A DNA stretch of 64,000 nt from an uncultured Alcanivoracaceae bacterium. Lineage in GTDB: Bacteria > Pseudomonadota > Gammaproteobacteria > Xanthomonadales > Marinicellaceae. The position numbers were made by a program, and so were the translations under genes. The notes under the pieces are model-generated. The model was not told the DNA's origin. It worked only from the letters and a program-made list of their open reading frames with translations, and did no database searches. The stretch covers positions 22,379-86,378 of the forward strand of contig CAYGTC010000007.1 in NCBI GenBank assembly GCA_964352735.1, given 5' to 3'. This document shows positions 11,436 to 16,753 of this stretch, one piece after another; the first letter of the stretch is position 1; the number at the start of each line of letters is the position of its first letter.

Positions 11436-12059
11436 TTATTCAACAGAAAAATTCATCAATTCCACTGGCAATAAACCCAGCGTTTTGACACCCAAATCAT
11501 CAAACGTGTCTTGTGGGAATGAAGACCATTCAATTGAAGGATCATAGGGATCATTGACATTGGTATCGCCGCCACAGGTTAATGCATTTCTTCTCAACGT
11601 TTCATTTTGCGTGCCTACACCACCAGCATTCCACTCTGAGCCTGGGTCACCCAGTAGATCTCCTATACTGTCTATTGTAAGCGCACCATTGCGCAATTCA
11701 ATGGTATCATCTCCATTAAAAGTCATGACAGTTGACGAGGTTAGCTGATCTGCCAAAGCAAGGAGAGAGGCATTTGCTGAATTGTTGGCAACAACAAATA
11801 CATCGTTATCTGCTATCGAGCCACTGAGTGAAAGAGAAGACGCACCACCAGTACCGCCATTAGTGTTTCTGATCAATGTGTAACTGGTCAAATCAACAAG
11901 TGCACCTGTTCCATTGTAAATTTCTATGGCTTTATTGTTACCACTGCCCTCAACATACTCAGAAATGATTAAATCCTCCTGTAAAAGAGGACACCCACCT
12001 GCTGCGACAGTAAATGATGAGATCAATGCAAAACCAGTAACCAATATTTTGTGTGTCAT
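11436..12059 (-). CDS. secreted lamin-tail-domain (LTD) protein, paralogue 1
   Basis: 207 aa with a signal peptide (LVTGFALISSFTVAA). The LTD signature matches the N-terminus of ExeM/NucH-type extracellular nucleases (LIISEYVEGSGNNKAIEIYNGTGALVDLTSY...DVFVVAN...FNGDDTIEL...DSIGDLLGDPGSEW...NETLRR). It ends in LPVELMNFSVE. Confidence 0.75.
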   Translation of the reverse strand: MTHKILVTGFALISSFTVAAGGCPLLQEDLIISEYVEGSGNNKAIEIYNGTGALVDLTSYTLIRNTNGGTGGASSLSLSGSIADNDVFVVANNSANASLLALADQLTSSTVMTFNGDDTIELRNGALTIDSIGDLLGDPGSEWNAGGVGTQNETLRRNALTCGGDTNVNDPYDPSIEWSSFPQDTFDDLGVKTLGLLPVELMNFSVE

Positions 12060-12175
12060 AGAAGTATTTCCTTTAAGTTAAGCCTCATGGATATTATCAA
12101 AATAGTAAGCTTTTCACAATATGTGCTTTGAAACAAGCTTGGAAAACACCATAGGAAAGCCATTGAATACAGGCA

Positions 12176-12210
12176 ATAAAAAACCTGAGAAAATCTCAGG
12201 CTTTTATTTT
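12176..12210 (-). terminator. rho-independent terminator of LTD paralogue 2
   Basis: Stem CCTGAGA (12184-12190) pairs with TCTCAGG (12194-12200), and a T-run follows on the minus strand. It is sequence-related to the hairpin at 11388-11420. Confidence 0.7.
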
Positions 12211-12233
12211 AAAAGTGAATTGACAGAAAATAA

Positions 12234-12887
12234 TTATTCAACAGAAAAATTTTCTAACTCAACGGGCAATTCTGTACCACCAGCACCACCATCAGCACCA
12301 GGTGTAGCAACCATTGTCGCATTAGCATTGCTACCGGAAATTATAGTCGTTTCCCAAAAACCTGTTGGAGAAGGGTCATTTGGTTTTGGAGATGGCGCAT
12401 TTATTCCAGTAGGAGTTGTTACTCCCCAAGAACCATCATTCGGTAATTGACTGGCTACTCTATGCGCCACTACATTTGAAGCAAAAGTATCAGTACCACC
12501 AATGCGATCAACTCCAAAACTATCAACAACAGATGTACCATTAAAAAGGTCATATTTGTCATTGCCATTATGGTTAATCGAGGTACTGACTTGATCCACA
12601 GTGCCAGCGCCGAATAACGTGTTAACATCTGTCGGACCAACCACATAAAAACCACCAGCAGGTATGACTCCGGTCAAAGTCACGGTTGTCGGAGTCGTTC
12701 CCCCATTACTGTAACGACGCAATTGCCACCCATCAACACTAAAATCAACAGCAGCACCACTGTTATGTAATTCAACAAACTTTGCAATACCGCCATTGGA
12801 CTCAAAAACTTCAGATATAAGTACATCCGCAGACACCGACGCCGACAATAAAACCGACAAACTGGCCAAAATTATTTTTTTATTCAT
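12234..12887 (-). CDS. secreted lamin-tail-domain (LTD) protein, paralogue 2
   Basis: 217 aa with signal peptide (ASLSVLLSASVSA/DV) and a divergent LTD (VLISEVFESNGGIAKFVELHNSGAAVDFSVDGWQL...GFYVV...NGNDKYDLF...DSFG). It ends in LPVELENFSVE. Confidence 0.7.
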   Translation of the reverse strand: MNKKIILASLSVLLSASVSADVLISEVFESNGGIAKFVELHNSGAAVDFSVDGWQLRRYSNGGTTPTTVTLTGVIPAGGFYVVGPTDVNTLFGAGTVDQVSTSINHNGNDKYDLFNGTSVVDSFGVDRIGGTDTFASNVVAHRVASQLPNDGSWGVTTPTGINAPSPKPNDPSPTGFWETTIISGSNANATMVATPGADGGAGGTELPVELENFSVE

Positions 12888-13228: not shown

Positions 13229-16200
13229 ATGAATAAAAAATTCATCACTTTATGCATTATAAGATTCAAGCCTATCGTTTTAATTTTACTGTTTTACTGC
13301 CTCACAGCACATGCATGGTGGGACAGTGACTGGAATCATCGTGTCAACATAACAGTTGACAACACATCAGCCACCGCTGTAACCAGCTACGAAGTTAAAC
13401 TCACCATTGATGCCAGCAATGCGCCAAACTTCGATTGGAGCAACAACGGAAATGATATTCGCTTTATTGACAGCGATGACATGACAATGTTAGCTCACTT
13501 TATTGAGTCATACGATGGCATTGCAGAAATCGCCACAGTTTGGGTGAACGTACCTAATATAGCTGCAATGGACTCTGCCAATTTATTTTTTTATTATGAC
13601 AACAGCACAGCTACTAATACGACTGATGCCAGTGCAACATTCTCCCAAAGCGGCCTCAAATATCATACACGCAACAGCACATTAGACCCAGACAGTTTGG
13701 CCACAGCTCAGTCTACTTTTGATGGCATAGCCGATGGCACAACAGGATTTGGTTGCAGCAATGTCACTGCATTTACCTCTTTAGAAAACAGCGAACTTTA
13801 TGGCAGCAATAACGCCATGGCTTTGACCTCTGAGGTATTCTTTAACATGCCATCTGGCGGCACATTACAACTCAGATTAGGAGGCGATTTTGGTGATGGA
13901 GGTGGATTATATGTAGACAATACCGTTATAGAAGAGTTATGGGGACCTGTTGGCACAGGTGATGACATGTGGTGGGCCAACACTTGGGCCAGCTTTACAA
14001 CTTCACAAGAAATACTTTATGGATCAATTGTTCTATCTGCGGGTTACCATGTCCTCAGACACATTGGTTTTGAGCAATGTTGTGATGGTGATGCTACATT
14101 GGAATACCGCATCGGCACCACTGGCTCATGGCTGGCGTTCAATACCAGCAATTTATCATTGGTCAGCCCTCAATGCCCTGTTAGCACTGCTGCAAGTTTT
14201 GCCGCCGAAGAAACATTCGATGCAATCATCGGCTATGTTTCATCACAATTTCACGATCAACATGTGCTGATAGAATGGCAATCGAACTCTGAAAGTTTTA
14301 ATGTGGGATTTAATATATGGATACAAGATCACACCGGCAAATGGCTTAAATCTAACGCAGAACTGATCCCATCAGAAAAAATTAACAGCCTCACACCTTT
14401 ACAATACCATTACCGTGTTGACAATATGTCTATTGAACATTTTCAAATCAGTTCAATCAATATCCATGGAAAAGAGGAATTTTATCGCACTTATGAAGTA
14501 AAAAAATCATATGGAAGGAAAACCACAACACAATCCATTGATTGGTCGATAGTCAATCAACAAAATAACACTAAGATTAAGCAAAGAAATCTGCTCAAAA
14601 ATTCACAGCTCACCCAGATCGATCAACAGGATCTTGTCGCCAATATTAAAACCAGCAAAACCGGCATAACTAGGGTTTATTTTGACCAGTTGATGGCCGC
14701 TGGCTTGGATATCACTCAGTTTGATGACAATAATTTAGCCGTTAGCTTTAAAGGTCGTGCAATCGCGCGTAATGTACATATTGATCATAATTCTGAAAAC
14801 AGTTACGTGGAATTCTTCGCCCAAACTCTGAATAATATTGATGCCTTATACCTCTCACAAGCCATTTACCAAATTTCAAATCAGCCAGATTTAGTAAAAC
14901 ACAGCAAAAACAACCGAATTCATAGACCTCTCACATTAACACAATCATATAACACAACAGATACCCGAGATAATAATGTTGTGTATAATTTTGCCAGCAG
15001 CAGCTCAGATCCTTGGTTTGAAAAATTATTAGCCAATTTTGGAAATGGGGCCACTCATCGCATTGAATTGACAAAACCAATTGATTTAGCGCTAAATGAT
15101 AACATCAACATAACGTTAAAAATGATGGGATTAACAGATTATCCTGGTAATGCTGCGATTAATCCAGACCATCACCTTAAAGTCATTCTCAATAATAACA
15201 CAGTCATATTTGATGGATTTGAAGATGGCATAGTTGATTGGCACATCAGCATACCTCTTACCAGCCAACAATTAGAGGATGGCGTCAATACATTAGATTT
15301 AACCTTGGTCAGTGATACTGGTTTTAGTGCTGATATGGTTTATTTTGACAAACTTGAGATCGATTATACAAAACCTCTGGCTAAAAATAATCAGCCGCTA
15401 TTATTCTCTACAGACCAAAAAAATACAGAATTTGAATTATCAGGCTTCATAGACAAAAATTTTATCGCCTATGCGCACAGCGCTTCAGGAGATTTGTTTG
15501 AACTGTACATTGATGACGAACCCTCAAATATCGATCGAATATTTATGGATCAATTTGAAATTCAGCTCACTCAACACCATTATGTTGATGCAATCAATGC
15601 CACTGGCAGTCACCAGTATTGGTTTTCTGATGCCGATACAGCACTAGCGGTTGATGAAATTCATATCACCAGCAAAGAAAAAATAACATTAGATAATAGC
15701 CATTACTTAATCATATCTGACACCAATTTTATCAATCACGATCTTGAACGCTTTAAAAATGCGAAGCAACAACAAGGACTTAAAACGTCCATTATCAGTT
15801 GGCAAGATATCATTGAAAAAAACGGAAATGGCTACGCTACCCCAGAAACTTTGACACGCTTTTTGAGTTCAACTTACCAGCATTTTCGCTTTACACATGT
15901 CTTGTTGGTTGGTGCTCAAACATATGATTACAATAATTACCTCGGGTTAAACACCGTCAATTTTATTCCAACGCATTATATGAAAACCAATGGGAACTTC
16001 CATTACACGCCGACTGATTTTCCATATACGGACATCAATAAGGATGGCTATCCAAATTTTGCACTGGGTCGCTGGCCAGTAAGAACAACACAAGAACTGA
16101 ACACCATTGTCAACAAAACCCTCACATGGCAACAACAACACCCATCAAATACCATCAATTCATTATTAATTGCTGAACAACAAGATCAAAACCTCATCAA

Positions 16201-16753
16201 TTTTGCCGAACAAGCTGACAGTGTTGCAAATACTTTACAGCTTGACGCTGATTTAACCCAAAAAGTATATGTGGATGATTACCTCGCTTCTTCCTCGGAT
16301 GATCCGATTGCTGAGGCAAAAAACGACTTAATCAACCACATCAATGGTGGCGTTGACTTGGTTATATTTGATGGCCATGGTAGCCCCACCACCTGGGCAT
16401 ATCAAAACTTATTCAATACACAGGATGTTGTGCAATTAACTAACATAAATCATCCATTTTTATTATCTCCATTGAGTTGTTATACCACATATTATGAAAA
16501 CCCCAGCACCAATACTTTAGCCCATCAAATGTTATTTTCAGGACAGAATGCTGCAGTAGCCATTCATGGCGCCATGGTATTAAGCCAATACTTATCCAAT
16601 CAAAACATGGCCACAACCACTTTGAAAGATATGATTGAGCGACAAAGCACCTTGGGAGAAGCCATAATGCGTGCTAAAATTGACTTATATCATGCCATTG
16701 ACGATAATATCCTCAACTGGAGTCTACTTGGTGATCCTGCAATTACGCTGTAA
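13229..16753 (+). CDS. large secreted multidomain protein: DUF2341 + PA14-like + beta-sandwich + C-terminal peptidase C25 (gingipain/PorU-like) domain
   Basis: 1174 aa with a signal peptide ending AHA. DUF2341 signature WWDSDWNHRVNITVDN...IRFID...VWVNVP...FFYYDN. PA14-like block LQLRLGGDFGDGGGLYVDNTVIEELWG. The C25 block runs from YLIISDTNF (about 15704) to LLGDPAITL, with GHG (His codon 16376-16378) and LSC (Cys codon 16478-16480). Confidence 0.75.
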   Translation: MNKKFITLCIIRFKPIVLILLFYCLTAHAWWDSDWNHRVNITVDNTSATAVTSYEVKLTIDASNAPNFDWSNNGNDIRFIDSDDMTMLAHFIESYDGIAEIATVWVNVPNIAAMDSANLFFYYDNSTATNTTDASATFSQSGLKYHTRNSTLDPDSLATAQSTFDGIADGTTGFGCSNVTAFTSLENSELYGSNNAMALTSEVFFNMPSGGTLQLRLGGDFGDGGGLYVDNTVIEELWGPVGTGDDMWWANTWASFTTSQEILYGSIVLSAGYHVLRHIGFEQCCDGDATLEYRIGTTGSWLAFNTSNLSLVSPQCPVSTAASFAAEETFDAIIGYVSSQFHDQHVLIEWQSNSESFNVGFNIWIQDHTGKWLKSNAELIPSEKINSLTPLQYHYRVDNMSIEHFQISSINIHGKEEFYRTYEVKKSYGRKTTTQSIDWSIVNQQNNTKIKQRNLLKNSQLTQIDQQDLVANIKTSKTGITRVYFDQLMAAGLDITQFDDNNLAVSFKGRAIARNVHIDHNSENSYVEFFAQTLNNIDALYLSQAIYQISNQPDLVKHSKNNRIHRPLTLTQSYNTTDTRDNNVVYNFASSSSDPWFEKLLANFGNGATHRIELTKPIDLALNDNINITLKMMGLTDYPGNAAINPDHHLKVILNNNTVIFDGFEDGIVDWHISIPLTSQQLEDGVNTLDLTLVSDTGFSADMVYFDKLEIDYTKPLAKNNQPLLFSTDQKNTEFELSGFIDKNFIAYAHSASGDLFELYIDDEPSNIDRIFMDQFEIQLTQHHYVDAINATGSHQYWFSDADTALAVDEIHITSKEKITLDNSHYLIISDTNFINHDLERFKNAKQQQGLKTSIISWQDIIEKNGNGYATPETLTRFLSSTYQHFRFTHVLLVGAQTYDYNNYLGLNTVNFIPTHYMKTNGNFHYTPTDFPYTDINKDGYPNFALGRWPVRTTQELNTIVNKTLTWQQQHPSNTINSLLIAEQQDQNLINFAEQADSVANTLQLDADLTQKVYVDDYLASSSDDPIAEAKNDLINHINGGVDLVIFDGHGSPTTWAYQNLFNTQDVVQLTNINHPFLLSPLSCYTTYYENPSTNTLAHQMLFSGQNAAVAIHGAMVLSQYLSNQNMATTTLKDMIERQSTLGEAIMRAKIDLYHAIDDNILNWSLLGDPAITL

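What the first reader, a model, noticed from the sequence alone, without database searches (positions are those of the whole stretch)
15704..16753. Catalytically intact C25 (gingipain/PorU-type) domain in a gammaproteobacterial context
The C-terminal ~350 aa follow the C25 layout. It begins YLIISDTNF...W, continues through LLVGAQ..., TDFPYTDINKDGYPNFALGRWPV, INGGVDLVIFDGHGSP (His, codon 16376-16378) and LSPLSCYTT (Cys, codon 16478-16480), and ends LLGDPAITL. The dyad is preserved, so this is probably an active cysteine peptidase or transpeptidase, fused to putative carbohydrate- or surface-binding modules. No T9SS genes are visible in this window.
Basis: partly seen in the sequence, partly recalled or inferred. 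Interest (0 to 1): 0.6.

Follow-up and report, generated by a model that had tools for sequence, protein, structure and literature searches.

The report
PorU-like peptidase fused to its cargo
The gene encodes a secreted protein that ends in an intact gingipain/PorU-type cysteine peptidase, one member of a large uncharacterised family in which this enzyme module is fused to the end of very different surface proteins in bacteria that have no type IX secretion system.

Summary
ORF 13229-16753 (1174 aa) ends in a full-length C25 domain (Pfam E 2e-63). His1050 and Cys1084 align with the RgpB and PorU catalytic pair and are invariant in 60 homologues.

The C25 domain is the last part of an ~850-residue C-terminal cassette:
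- an FN3-like domain whose first strand resembles "PVxL";
- PorU-like N-domains;
- the C25 domain itself.

Six of the genome's seven C25 paralogues carry this cassette behind different passengers, and so do more than 1200 protein clusters elsewhere. Here the passenger is DUF2341 plus CCXG. Foldseek's best match is PorU, over 820 columns. I found no T9SS core genes.

The neighbouring LTD proteins ending in LPVELxNFSVE are probably not its substrates. Orthologues of this protein occur only in relatives without such tails. The tails instead track a different paralogue ("class A", another contig) and a small FN3-like protein that lacks the first strand.

Best reading: a T9SS-independent PorU-like peptidase acting on its own fused cargo. 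That mechanism is inferred, not shown.

An earlier scan note on this window described the PVEL tail. Other notes report PorU-like peptidases with short tags in other phyla.

The parts
13229..13315 (+). Signal peptide (residues 1-29, ...CLTAHA|WW), Sec/SPase I type. No lipobox.
   Evidence: Read from the sequence. AF2 models an N-terminal helix of low confidence. The AWW(D/N)S(D/N)WNH start of the mature protein is conserved in orthologues.
13445..13645 (+). DUF2341 beta-sandwich (residues 73-139). First part of the variable passenger.
   Evidence: Pfam PF10102, E 1.3e-15. AF2 strands at residues 37-123.
13658..14164 (+). CCXG domain (residues 144-312, with QCCDG). Second part of the passenger. 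No PEP-CTERM tail.
   Evidence: NCBIfam NF038118, 89.8 bits against a cut-off of 90, model positions 10-174 of 199. NCBI names orthologues 'CCXG family PEP-CTERM protein'.
14213..14524 (+). FN3-like domain that opens the conserved C-terminal cassette (residues ~329-432). Its own first strand is IIGYVSSQF, a degenerate form of the family consensus TxPVTLxxF. It is followed by V.I.W.S.SE..N.GF.IW.
   Evidence: Paralogue and homologue alignments. AF2 strands 332-342, 345-355, 358-366 and onward at pLDDT about 90. A profile of this domain finds it in the six cassette paralogues. It also finds it directly before T9SS CTDs in a Bacteroidota genome. No Pfam family matches it.
14525..14632 (+). Conserved IDW motif and long helix (residues ~433-468) linking the FN3-like domain to the PorU-like core. 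Natural two-gene versions of the cassette are split at this point.
   Evidence: W439 is nearly invariant. AF2 helix 439-461 at pLDDT above 90. Split pairs in G000 contig C12, G571 and G563.
14633..15703 (+). PorU-like N-terminal beta domains (residues 469-825). H648, within a PDHH motif, is invariant.
   Evidence: Residues 531-1174 align to positions 97-732 of the 1095-position NF033707 PorU model. Foldseek aligns 820 columns with PorU 6za2, E 7e-26. Invariant residues.
15704..16753 (+). C25 catalytic domain (residues 826-1174) plus the stop codon. His1050 is at 16376-16378 and Cys1084 at 16478-16480. The protein ends 4 residues after LLGDP.
   Evidence: Of about 140 homologues, 118 end fewer than 10 residues after LLGDP.
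11436..12887 (-). Context only: two small secreted lamin-tail-domain (LTD) proteins (12234-12887 and 11436-12059) ending in LPVELENFSVE and LPVELMNFSVE. They are probably cargo of a different C25 paralogue, not of this protein.

Best explanation
SHOWN. The gene encodes a Sec-exported 1174-aa protein. It has a lectin-like passenger (DUF2341 plus CCXG domain) followed by a conserved ~850-residue C-terminal cassette. The cassette consists of an FN3-like domain, PorU-like beta domains and a C25 catalytic domain with an intact His1050/Cys1084 dyad, and it ends the protein. The cassette is a widespread module that is always C-terminal, sits behind very different passengers, and occurs in genomes without a type IX secretion system.

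INFERRED. The cassette is a self-contained version of the PorU step of type IX secretion. In Bacteroidota the same FN3-like domain sits immediately before the cargo's C-terminal domain, the region where PorU is known to cut, and PorU acts in trans. Here the PorU-like enzyme occupies the place of that C-terminal domain. After export it most likely acts in cis on its own polypeptide near the FN3-like/helix junction. It would either release the passenger or, as PorU does, transfer it to a surface acceptor. How the protein crosses the outer membrane is unknown. Its function does not depend on the neighbouring PVEL-tailed LTD proteins.
For: - Domain and dyad.
- PorU-like over far more than the C25 domain: NF033707 model positions 97-732 (a paralogue covers positions 3-732). 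Foldseek's best hit is PorU 6za2, 820 columns, E 7e-26.
- Cassette shared by six of seven paralogues from residue ~324 to the end. Their passengers include an S8 subtilase with P-domain and GEVED, and 11-14 SdrD_B adhesin repeats.
- Family size: 1219 representative clusters at E<1e-30. Nearly all of the top 150 match residues ~325-1173 and end at their own C-terminus. Protein lengths run from 568 to 4141 aa.
- A conserved natural split: a giant adhesin ending in the FN3-like domain plus helix, overlapping a ~740-750-aa free-standing PorU-like C25 gene with its own signal peptide. This is seen in G000 C12, G563 and G571, where it is the only C25 found. It looks like a cargo-enzyme pair.
- In a T9SS-positive Bacteroidota genome, 4 of 6 hits to the FN3-like profile have the domain followed by a ~93-98-residue 'YPNP' CTD. 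A fifth has the domain followed by the start of such a CTD at the end of the fetched locus.
- No SprA, PorV or GldM in the genome, which is 93% complete.
Against: - No experiment exists for any member, so the catalytic activity itself is only predicted.
- I could not read the model coordinates. I therefore could not check whether the linker or the FN3 junction lies in the active-site cleft.
- No conserved cleavage motif was identified.
- In the model the FN3-like domain is a complete, confident fold. Nothing structural demands processing.
- A fusion of a subtilase to the cassette (contig C92) fits a purely degradative role equally well.
- The route across the outer membrane is unexplained.
Confidence: 0.45

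Rival explanations
1. It is an extracellular degradative cysteine protease that works like a gingipain in nutrition. The lectin-like modules and beta domains only target it to particles or polymers, and it has no role in sorting or self-processing.
For: Intact dyad. Signal peptide. The N-terminal modules are of binding type. One paralogue fuses the cassette to an S8 subtilase, giving two peptidases in one chain. The family has expanded to seven copies in a marine heterotroph.
Against: The similarity to PorU, a processing enzyme, extends ~300 residues upstream of the catalytic domain. Gingipains match only the catalytic domain. There is no gingipain prodomain. The cassette always sits at the extreme C-terminus behind giant adhesin-type repeats, which is not typical of secreted hydrolases. 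The conserved adhesin plus free-standing enzyme gene pair points to a dedicated substrate.
Confidence: 0.3
2. It is the trans-acting peptidase or sortase for the two adjacent LTD proteins and recognises their LPVELxNFSVE tails. This is the pairing the first reader implied.
For: The genes are divergently adjacent in this window and in a 71%-identical locus, where an LTD protein ends in LPVELINFSVD. The tail resembles the first strand of the cassette's FN3-like domain. All 13 genomes found to carry PVEL tails hold C25 genes.
Against: - Orthologues with the same passenger are found only in G560, G564, G566 and G569. None of them has PVEL tails.
- In three of those four genomes the neighbour in the same slot carries an IPTL-CTERM-like tail instead.
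- A same-genus genome keeps the LTD-PVEL gene at the syntenic site without this gene.
- In two same-genus genomes, none of the 8 tail genes shares a contig with a C25 gene.
- The tails track the class-A paralogue: 7 of 8 genomes with class A have tails, against 0 of 18 without it.
- Its own FN3 strand A is modelled in place with high confidence.
Confidence: 0.08
3. It is an ordinary T9SS component or cargo (PorU or a gingipain-like CTD protein) in a genome that does carry a T9SS.
For: TIGR04183 T9SS C-terminal domains are found on five small contigs of the assembly.
Against: - The protein has no CTD and ends at the C25 domain.
- It scores 142.6 bits on the PorU model against a cut-off of 420.
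- SprA, PorV and GldM were not found, and GldK hits are only sub-threshold matches to the C-terminal half of the model.
- The SprA search does ring at 2543 bits in a Bacteroidota genome.
- The five CTD contigs deviate from the genome's tetranucleotide signature (z 2.4-4.0, against about 0 for C25 contigs). The three ORFs whose N-terminus lies on its contig have signal peptides that look Bacteroidota-like to me. They are probably bin contamination.
Confidence: 0.02
4. The C25 domain is a non-catalytic structural or anchoring module.
For: It is always terminal, like an anchor domain. No activity data exist.
Against: Gly-His and Cys are invariant across 60 homologues that go down to 23% identity. 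That degree of conservation is not expected for a pseudo-enzyme.
Confidence: 0.05

Closest known systems
[quoted passage not shown]
   Same: Same C25 catalytic domain and dyad. The beta domains N-terminal to it are colinear (HMM positions 97-732; 820 Foldseek columns). The protein is linked to the same FN3-like 'PVxL' domain that precedes T9SS C-terminal domains in PorU's cargo.
   Different: It has none of PorU's C-terminal ~360 residues, including the CTD. The genome has no T9SS. It scores far below the equivalog cut-off. It is fused behind a passenger and an FN3-like domain, so the presumed substrate is in cis. No PorV, PorQ or PorZ partners are known.
Gingipains RgpB and Kgp (MEROPS C25; PDB 1cvr, 4ief, 4rbm)
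   Same: Catalytic domain fold (TM-score 0.55-0.65 relative to the target) and the His/Cys positions.
   Different: No N-terminal prodomain, no IgSF domain after the catalytic domain, no CTD and no haemagglutinin/adhesin region. The catalytic domain is at the extreme C-terminus instead of near the N-terminus.
NCBI protein name 'CCXG family PEP-CTERM protein' (NF038118), given to orthologues such as an Arenicella sp. MAG protein
   Same: Residues 144-312 match the CCXG domain of that family.
   Different: There is no PEP-CTERM tail. Two thirds of the protein is the PorU-like cassette. The score is 89.8 against a cut-off of 90. The name is misleading for this architecture.
Protease-mediated strand exchange in Bacteroidota type V pili (from my own knowledge, not checked here: lipoprotein pilins processed by Arg-gingipain, a C25 enzyme, with a C-terminal donor strand filling the freed groove)
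   Same: This is an analogy for the sister PVEL system in this genome. That system has a C25 enzyme, a small and often lipoprotein-type FN3-like protein lacking its first strand, and cargo whose C-terminal tail looks like that strand.
   Different: No homology to pilins was shown. It concerns the class-A paralogue, not the protein in this finding. It is entirely inferential.

Membership tests
Peptidase family C25 (Pfam PF01364 / MEROPS C25) | Full-length match to the family model above the curated cut-off | tested here: met
   215.2 bits against a cut-off of 23, model positions 1-374 of 374, residues 826-1174.
Peptidase family C25 (Pfam PF01364 / MEROPS C25) | Catalytic His and Cys at the positions of RgpB His211 and Cys244 | tested here: met
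   His1050 and Cys1084 align with them and with the PorU pair. They are invariant in 60 homologues.
Peptidase family C25 (Pfam PF01364 / MEROPS C25) | Caspase-like alpha/beta fold of the catalytic domain | tested here: met
   AF2 model against RgpB 4ief: E 1e-17, TM-score 0.65 relative to the target, rmsd 3.8 A. Kgp 4rbm: TM-score 0.57.
Peptidase family C25 (Pfam PF01364 / MEROPS C25) | Peptidase or transpeptidase activity | not testable with these tools
   Needs an enzyme assay.
T9SS sortase PorU (NCBIfam NF033707) | Score at or above the equivalog cut-off (420 bits) | tested here: not met
   142.6 bits.
T9SS sortase PorU (NCBIfam NF033707) | Own T9SS C-terminal domain | tested here: not met
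   The protein ends 4 residues after LLGDP. Only model positions 97-732 of 1095 are covered.
T9SS sortase PorU (NCBIfam NF033707) | T9SS core genes (SprA/Sov, PorV, GldKLMN) in the genome | tested here: not met
   No SprA, PorV or GldM. GldK hits are only sub-threshold matches to the C-terminal half of the model. The positive control for SprA worked. The genome is 93% complete, so absence is probable, not proven.
T9SS sortase PorU (NCBIfam NF033707) | Multidomain layout N-terminal to the catalytic domain | tested here: met
   Colinear HMM alignment and 820-column Foldseek alignment to 6za2.
Gingipains (Rgp/Kgp) | N-terminal inhibitory prodomain (PF08126), IgSF domain and CTD after the catalytic domain | tested here: not met
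   No PF08126 hit and nothing follows the C25 domain.
CCXG family PEP-CTERM protein (NF038118) | Score at or above 90 bits and a PEP-CTERM sorting tail | tested here: not met
   89.8 bits. The model's last 25 positions, where the tail lies, are not matched. The protein continues into the cassette.
C-terminal FN3-like + PorU-like C25 cassette (defined in this report) | An ~850-residue block (FN3-like, IDW helix, PorU-like domains, C25) ending at the protein's C-terminus behind a variable passenger | tested here: met
   Residues ~324-1174 align with five paralogues, and from residue 455 with the split sixth. They also align with the top 150 of 1219 strong representatives.

The most novel reading that the evidence does not exclude
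The FN3-like 'PVxL' domain is the common handle for PorU-type C25 enzymes, and the pair exists in three layouts.
1. T9SS: passenger, FN3, CTD, with PorU in trans.
2. The fused cassette seen here: passenger, FN3, then the PorU-like enzyme, acting in cis, or split into two adjacent genes.
3. A split 'PVEL system': the cargo keeps only the first FN3 strand as an 11-residue tail (LPVELxNFSVE). A small, often lipoprotein-type FN3-like protein that lacks that strand supplies the rest. A free-standing class-A PorU-like peptidase, often encoded next to it, docks or ligates the two.

Together these would be T9SS-independent ways of processing or anchoring surface proteins in Gammaproteobacteria and Acidobacteriota.
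Probability: 0.3. Interest if true: 0.85.

Novelty: new variant of a known kind. Interest (0 to 1): 0.55.

Why it matters
To my knowledge, C25 peptidases have been studied only in Bacteroidota, as gingipains (virulence proteases) and as PorU (the T9SS sortase).

This work shows that the PorU-like architecture is common outside that phylum. C25 genes were found in about 45% of sampled Acidobacteriota genomes and about 4% of sampled Gammaproteobacteria. Much of it occurs as a C-terminal module fused to adhesins, lectin-like domains and even other proteases, in organisms without a T9SS.

If the module processes or anchors its own passenger, it is a new self-contained route for displaying surface proteins. 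It would also explain thousands of proteins now annotated only as 'C25 family cysteine peptidase', or misnamed 'CCXG family PEP-CTERM protein'.

The work also redirects the search for the enzyme behind the recently noted PVEL sorting tail. That search should move from this gene to a specific paralogue plus a small partner protein. The partner protein and at least one PVEL tail are present in cultured Tahibacter amnicola; whether that genome also carries the class-A peptidase was not tested.

Tried and rejected
1. LTD tails as substrates of this protein: rejected on distribution.
2. LTD tails replacing a missing first strand in this protein's FN3-like domain: rejected. AF2 models its own strand (residues 332-342) confidently.
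3. A T9SS in the genome: rejected. The core genes are absent. The contigs carrying T9SS CTDs look like contamination.
4. Conserved operon partners of the class-A paralogue within +/-8 kb: none were found outside the same-genus pair in an ORF-clustering pass that kept only ORFs of 100 aa or more. Later profile searches did find the small FN3-like partner next to it.
5. One apparent PVEL hit in an unrelated gammaproteobacterium (G389) proved to be a chance match inside a pta-type gene.
6. Literature searches for C25 or PorU homologues outside Bacteroidota returned nothing relevant. The PorU structure paper is not held.
7. The promoter and terminator scan around the gene was uninformative.
8. Pfam gives no name for the FN3-like domain or for the small partner protein.
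Contacts between the linker and the active site could not be measured.
Full report
**1. Observation**

ORF 13229-16753 (+) encodes 1174 aa.

phmmer against PDB sequences aligns the domain with PorU (6za2), RgpB (1cvr, 4ief) and Kgp (4tkx). Counting along the printed alignment, His1050 (16376-16378) sits opposite RgpB His211 and Cys1084 (16478-16480) opposite Cys244. The same holds for the His and Cys of PorU. In a 60-sequence alignment of homologues (23-71% identity) G1049, H1050 and C1084 are invariant.

**2. Anatomy of the protein**

The N-terminus is a Sec signal peptide (...TAHA|WW). After it come:
- a DUF2341 sandwich (residues 73-139);
- a CCXG domain (residues 144-312; NF038118 at 89.8 bits against a cut-off of 90, with no PEP-CTERM tail);
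- a disordered linker (residues 306-328).

From about residue 329 to the end the AlphaFold2 model is very confident (overall pLDDT 84, pTM 0.75). This part contains:
- an FN3-like sandwich (strands from 332-342 onward);
- a conserved IDW motif and a long helix (439-461);
- several beta domains (469-825);
- the C25 domain.

The NCBIfam PorU model aligns residues 531-1174 to positions 97-732 of 1095, at 142.6 bits against a cut-off of 420. Foldseek's best PDB match is PorU 6za2 over 820 columns (E 7e-26). RgpB and Kgp match only the catalytic domain. The protein is therefore PorU-like well beyond the C25 domain, but it lacks PorU's C-terminal third and its CTD.

**3. A cassette, not a one-off**

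The assembly (5.16 Mb, 183 contigs, 93% complete) holds seven C25 genes.

Six of them share the block from about residue 324 to the C-terminus. Their passengers differ:
- an S8 subtilase with P-domain and GEVED (contig C92);
- 11-14 SdrD_B adhesin repeats (C18, C12);
- unknown domains (C1, C74).

All six begin the block with an FN3-like domain whose first strand reads [LT]P[VI][TS]L.[FY]. This protein has the degenerate form IIGYVSSQF.

A scan of 1.84 billion representative proteins gave 1219 hits at E<1e-30. Nearly all of the top 150 match residues ~325-1173 and end at their own C-terminus. Their lengths range from 568 to 4141 aa. Of about 140 sequences, 118 stop fewer than 10 residues after LLGDP.

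On contig C12 the cassette is split into two genes. A 2568-aa adhesin ends with the FN3-like domain and helix. It overlaps a 736-aa gene for the PorU-like core, which has its own signal peptide. The same two-gene form is conserved in G563 and in G571, where it is the only C25 found. This argues that the FN3-terminated passenger and the PorU-like core are functional partners, whether fused or not.

**4. Link to T9SS cargo**

I searched a profile of the FN3-like domain against a Bacteroidota genome that does have a T9SS (SprA at 2543 bits). It gave six hits. In four, the domain (ALPITLVKF...W.T..E.N) is followed by a ~93-98-residue 'YPNP' type A CTD. In a fifth, the domain is followed by the start of such a CTD at the end of the fetched locus.

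So in T9SS cargo this domain lies immediately before the CTD, which PorU removes in P. gingivalis (PMC11285876). In the cassette, a PorU-like enzyme stands where the CTD would be. This is the basis for the inferred cis-acting mechanism. No experiment or contact analysis supports it yet.

**5. No T9SS here**

SprA, PorV and GldM were not found. GldK gave only sub-threshold matches to the C-terminal half of the model.

TIGR04183 CTDs do occur on five small contigs. These contigs deviate from the genome's tetranucleotide signature (z 2.4-4.0), whereas the contigs carrying C25 or PVEL genes sit near 0. The three ORFs whose N-terminus lies on its contig have signal peptides that look Bacteroidota-like to me. 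They are most likely bin contamination.

**6. The neighbouring LTD proteins and the PVEL tail**

Both LTD proteins end in LPVEL(E/M)NFSVE. A 71%-identical locus has one ending in LPVELINFSVD. The genome has 13 ORFs ending in PVELx[NKS]F[SET][VI][ED].

A strict DNA pattern found seven further cases among 185,579 species genomes. All seven lie at ORF ends, in records labelled Acidobacteriota, Marinicellaceae, Alcanivoracaceae and Chitinophagaceae. Every tail-bearing genome found has C25 genes. But C25 is much more widespread than the tails:

| Sample | Genomes with C25 | Genomes with PVEL tails |
|---|---|---|
| Gammaproteobacteria (401, including this genome) | ~16 strong | 1 (this genome only) |
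| Acidobacteriota (151) | 68 | 2 |

The single extra gammaproteobacterial hit (G389) was a chance match inside a pta-type gene.

**7. Which C25 goes with the tails?**

I compared 26 relatives. Fifteen of them, including this genome, are in the same genus. G002 and G003 proved to be the same-genus genomes G570 and G565, because their hit coordinates are identical.

- Tails occur in G000, G559, G565, G567, G570, G573 and G580.
- Full-length homologues of the seventh paralogue ('class A': contig C4, 864 aa, PorU model positions 69-794, Lys-rich tail) occur in exactly these genomes plus G572.
- That gives tails in 7 of 8 class-A genomes and in 0 of 18 others. The hypergeometric probability is 1.2e-5 by my own calculation. 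It is not corrected for relatedness.
- Cassette-type C25 genes are present in most of the tail-less genomes.
- Orthologues of this finding's protein (queried with its N-terminal 324 aa) occur only in G560, G564, G566 and G569. None of them has tails or class A.
- In G560, G564 and G569 the divergent neighbour is instead a ~240-aa protein ending in an IPTL-CTERM-like tail, and one of them carries a faint P-domain hit (TIGR04174 at 17.4 bits against a cut-off of 20.5).
- A same-genus genome keeps the LTD-PVEL gene at the syntenic site without this gene.
- In G570 and G565 no tail gene shares a contig with a C25 gene.

In the Acidobacteriota sample, the class-A-specific N-terminal 350 aa hit only G410, G001 and G450. 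G410 and G001 are the only two tail-bearing genomes in that sample.

The adjacency in this window is therefore not evidence of a substrate relationship.

**8. A third component (outside the finding)**

The FN3 profile also hit a 128-aa secreted protein on contig C40 (2011-2394). The match starts at the second strand. AF2 models no strand before the one equivalent to strand B.

- Homologues in five of the eight relatives examined have a lipobox, and in two of those the conserved KW.TASE motif lies within about 10 residues of the lipobox Cys.
- Among the 26 relatives it occurs in G000, G559, G565, G567, G572, G573, G577, G578 and G580. It lies 0.2-12 kb from the class-A-type C25 in five of them.
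- In Acidobacteriota the two best hits lie 200-430 bp downstream of the class-A genes of G410 and G001.
- The family has at least 250 clusters and no Pfam domain. Every source name listed is 'hypothetical protein', 'Uncharacterized protein' or 'Lipoprotein', including proteins of cultured Tahibacter species.
- In T. amnicola it sits in a glycosyltransferase cluster, and that genome has one strict PVEL tail.

This suggests a separate 'PVEL system': a class-A peptidase, a strand-less FN3-like anchor, and cargo carrying the missing strand. That reading is speculative. It is offered as the novel case.

**9. Verdict**

The domain is real and very probably catalytic. The protein is a new variant of the PorU kind: a T9SS-independent PorU-like cassette fused to its own lectin-like cargo. 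Its physiological reaction (self-release, self-anchoring or plain proteolysis) is unresolved. The proposed test against LPVELENFSVE peptides should be aimed mainly at the class-A paralogue.

**10. Earlier scan notes**

One note described the PVEL tail on this same window. Others describe PorU-like peptidases with other short tags in Chloroflexota and other phyla. I tested the former's claim about FN3 preceding the CTD. I did not test the latter.

Noticed in passing
G000 contig C4:107856-110450 (-), outside the window: 'Class-A' C25 paralogue (864 aa; PorU model positions 69-794; Lys-rich C-terminal tail). Its presence matches that of PVEL tails: 7 of 8 relatives with it have tails, 0 of 18 without it do. 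In Acidobacteriota its N-domain is found in only 3 of 151 genomes, including both tail-bearing ones. It is the likely PVEL-tail enzyme.
   Followed up: yes
G000 contig C40:2011-2394 (+), outside the window: A 128-aa secreted FN3-like protein that lacks the first strand. Five of eight relatives examined have a lipobox form. It is encoded next to or within 12 kb of class-A C25 genes in two phyla. The family has at least 250 clusters, no Pfam domain, and only 'hypothetical protein', 'Uncharacterized protein' or 'Lipoprotein' as source names. It is a candidate acceptor or anchor for PVEL tails.
   Followed up: partly
G000 contigs C155, C130, C123, C172, C113: Five small contigs encode proteins with typical T9SS type A C-terminal domains; the three whose N-terminus is on the contig have signal peptides that look Bacteroidota-like to me. 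Their tetranucleotide signature is off (z 2.4-4.0) and the assembly has no T9SS core genes. They are probably contamination of the bin.
   Followed up: partly
G000 contig C92:8832-15236 (+): A 2134-aa protein that fuses an S8 subtilase, a P-domain and a GEVED domain to the FN3-like/PorU-like C25 cassette, giving two peptidase domains of different classes in one chain.
   Followed up: no
G000 contig C12:35549-45462 (-); also G571:C143 and G563:C5: A conserved two-gene form of the cassette. A giant SdrD_B adhesin ends in the FN3-like domain and overlaps by a few bases a ~740-aa free-standing PorU-like C25 gene with its own signal peptide.
   Followed up: yes
window ~15520-15550 (DRIFMDQFE, near residue 770), and the C-termini of several G000 proteins (C12 537 aa, C40 849 aa, C6 1400 aa): A recurrent motif D.IF..[SG]F[ED] ends several large secreted proteins in this genome and in a same-genus genome. 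It occurs internally in this protein and its orthologues. It may be another C-terminal signal or a domain boundary.
   Followed up: no
L072:7655-8371, L073:6729-7445, L074:7803-8534 (relatives); about 7 proteins in G000: IPTL-CTERM-like tails ([VI]P[ST]LS.[WY]G, then a TM helix and a basic cluster; TIGR04174 just below its cut-off). In three relatives such a ~240-aa protein occupies the slot that the LTD genes hold here, divergent from the orthologue of this gene.
   Followed up: partly
P0026, P0027 (NCBI MGH1541216.1, MEO0367809.1): NCBI names orthologues of this protein 'CCXG family PEP-CTERM protein', although they have no PEP-CTERM tail and are two-thirds PorU-like C25 cassette.
   Followed up: no
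L095 (Tahibacter amnicola CP104694.1, 6313194-6333703): In this cultured species the small FN3-like protein lies inside a cluster of glycosyltransferases (GT4, GT2, PMT_2) and an epimerase. This hints at a link to a surface glycan, as with PorU and A-LPS.
   Followed up: no
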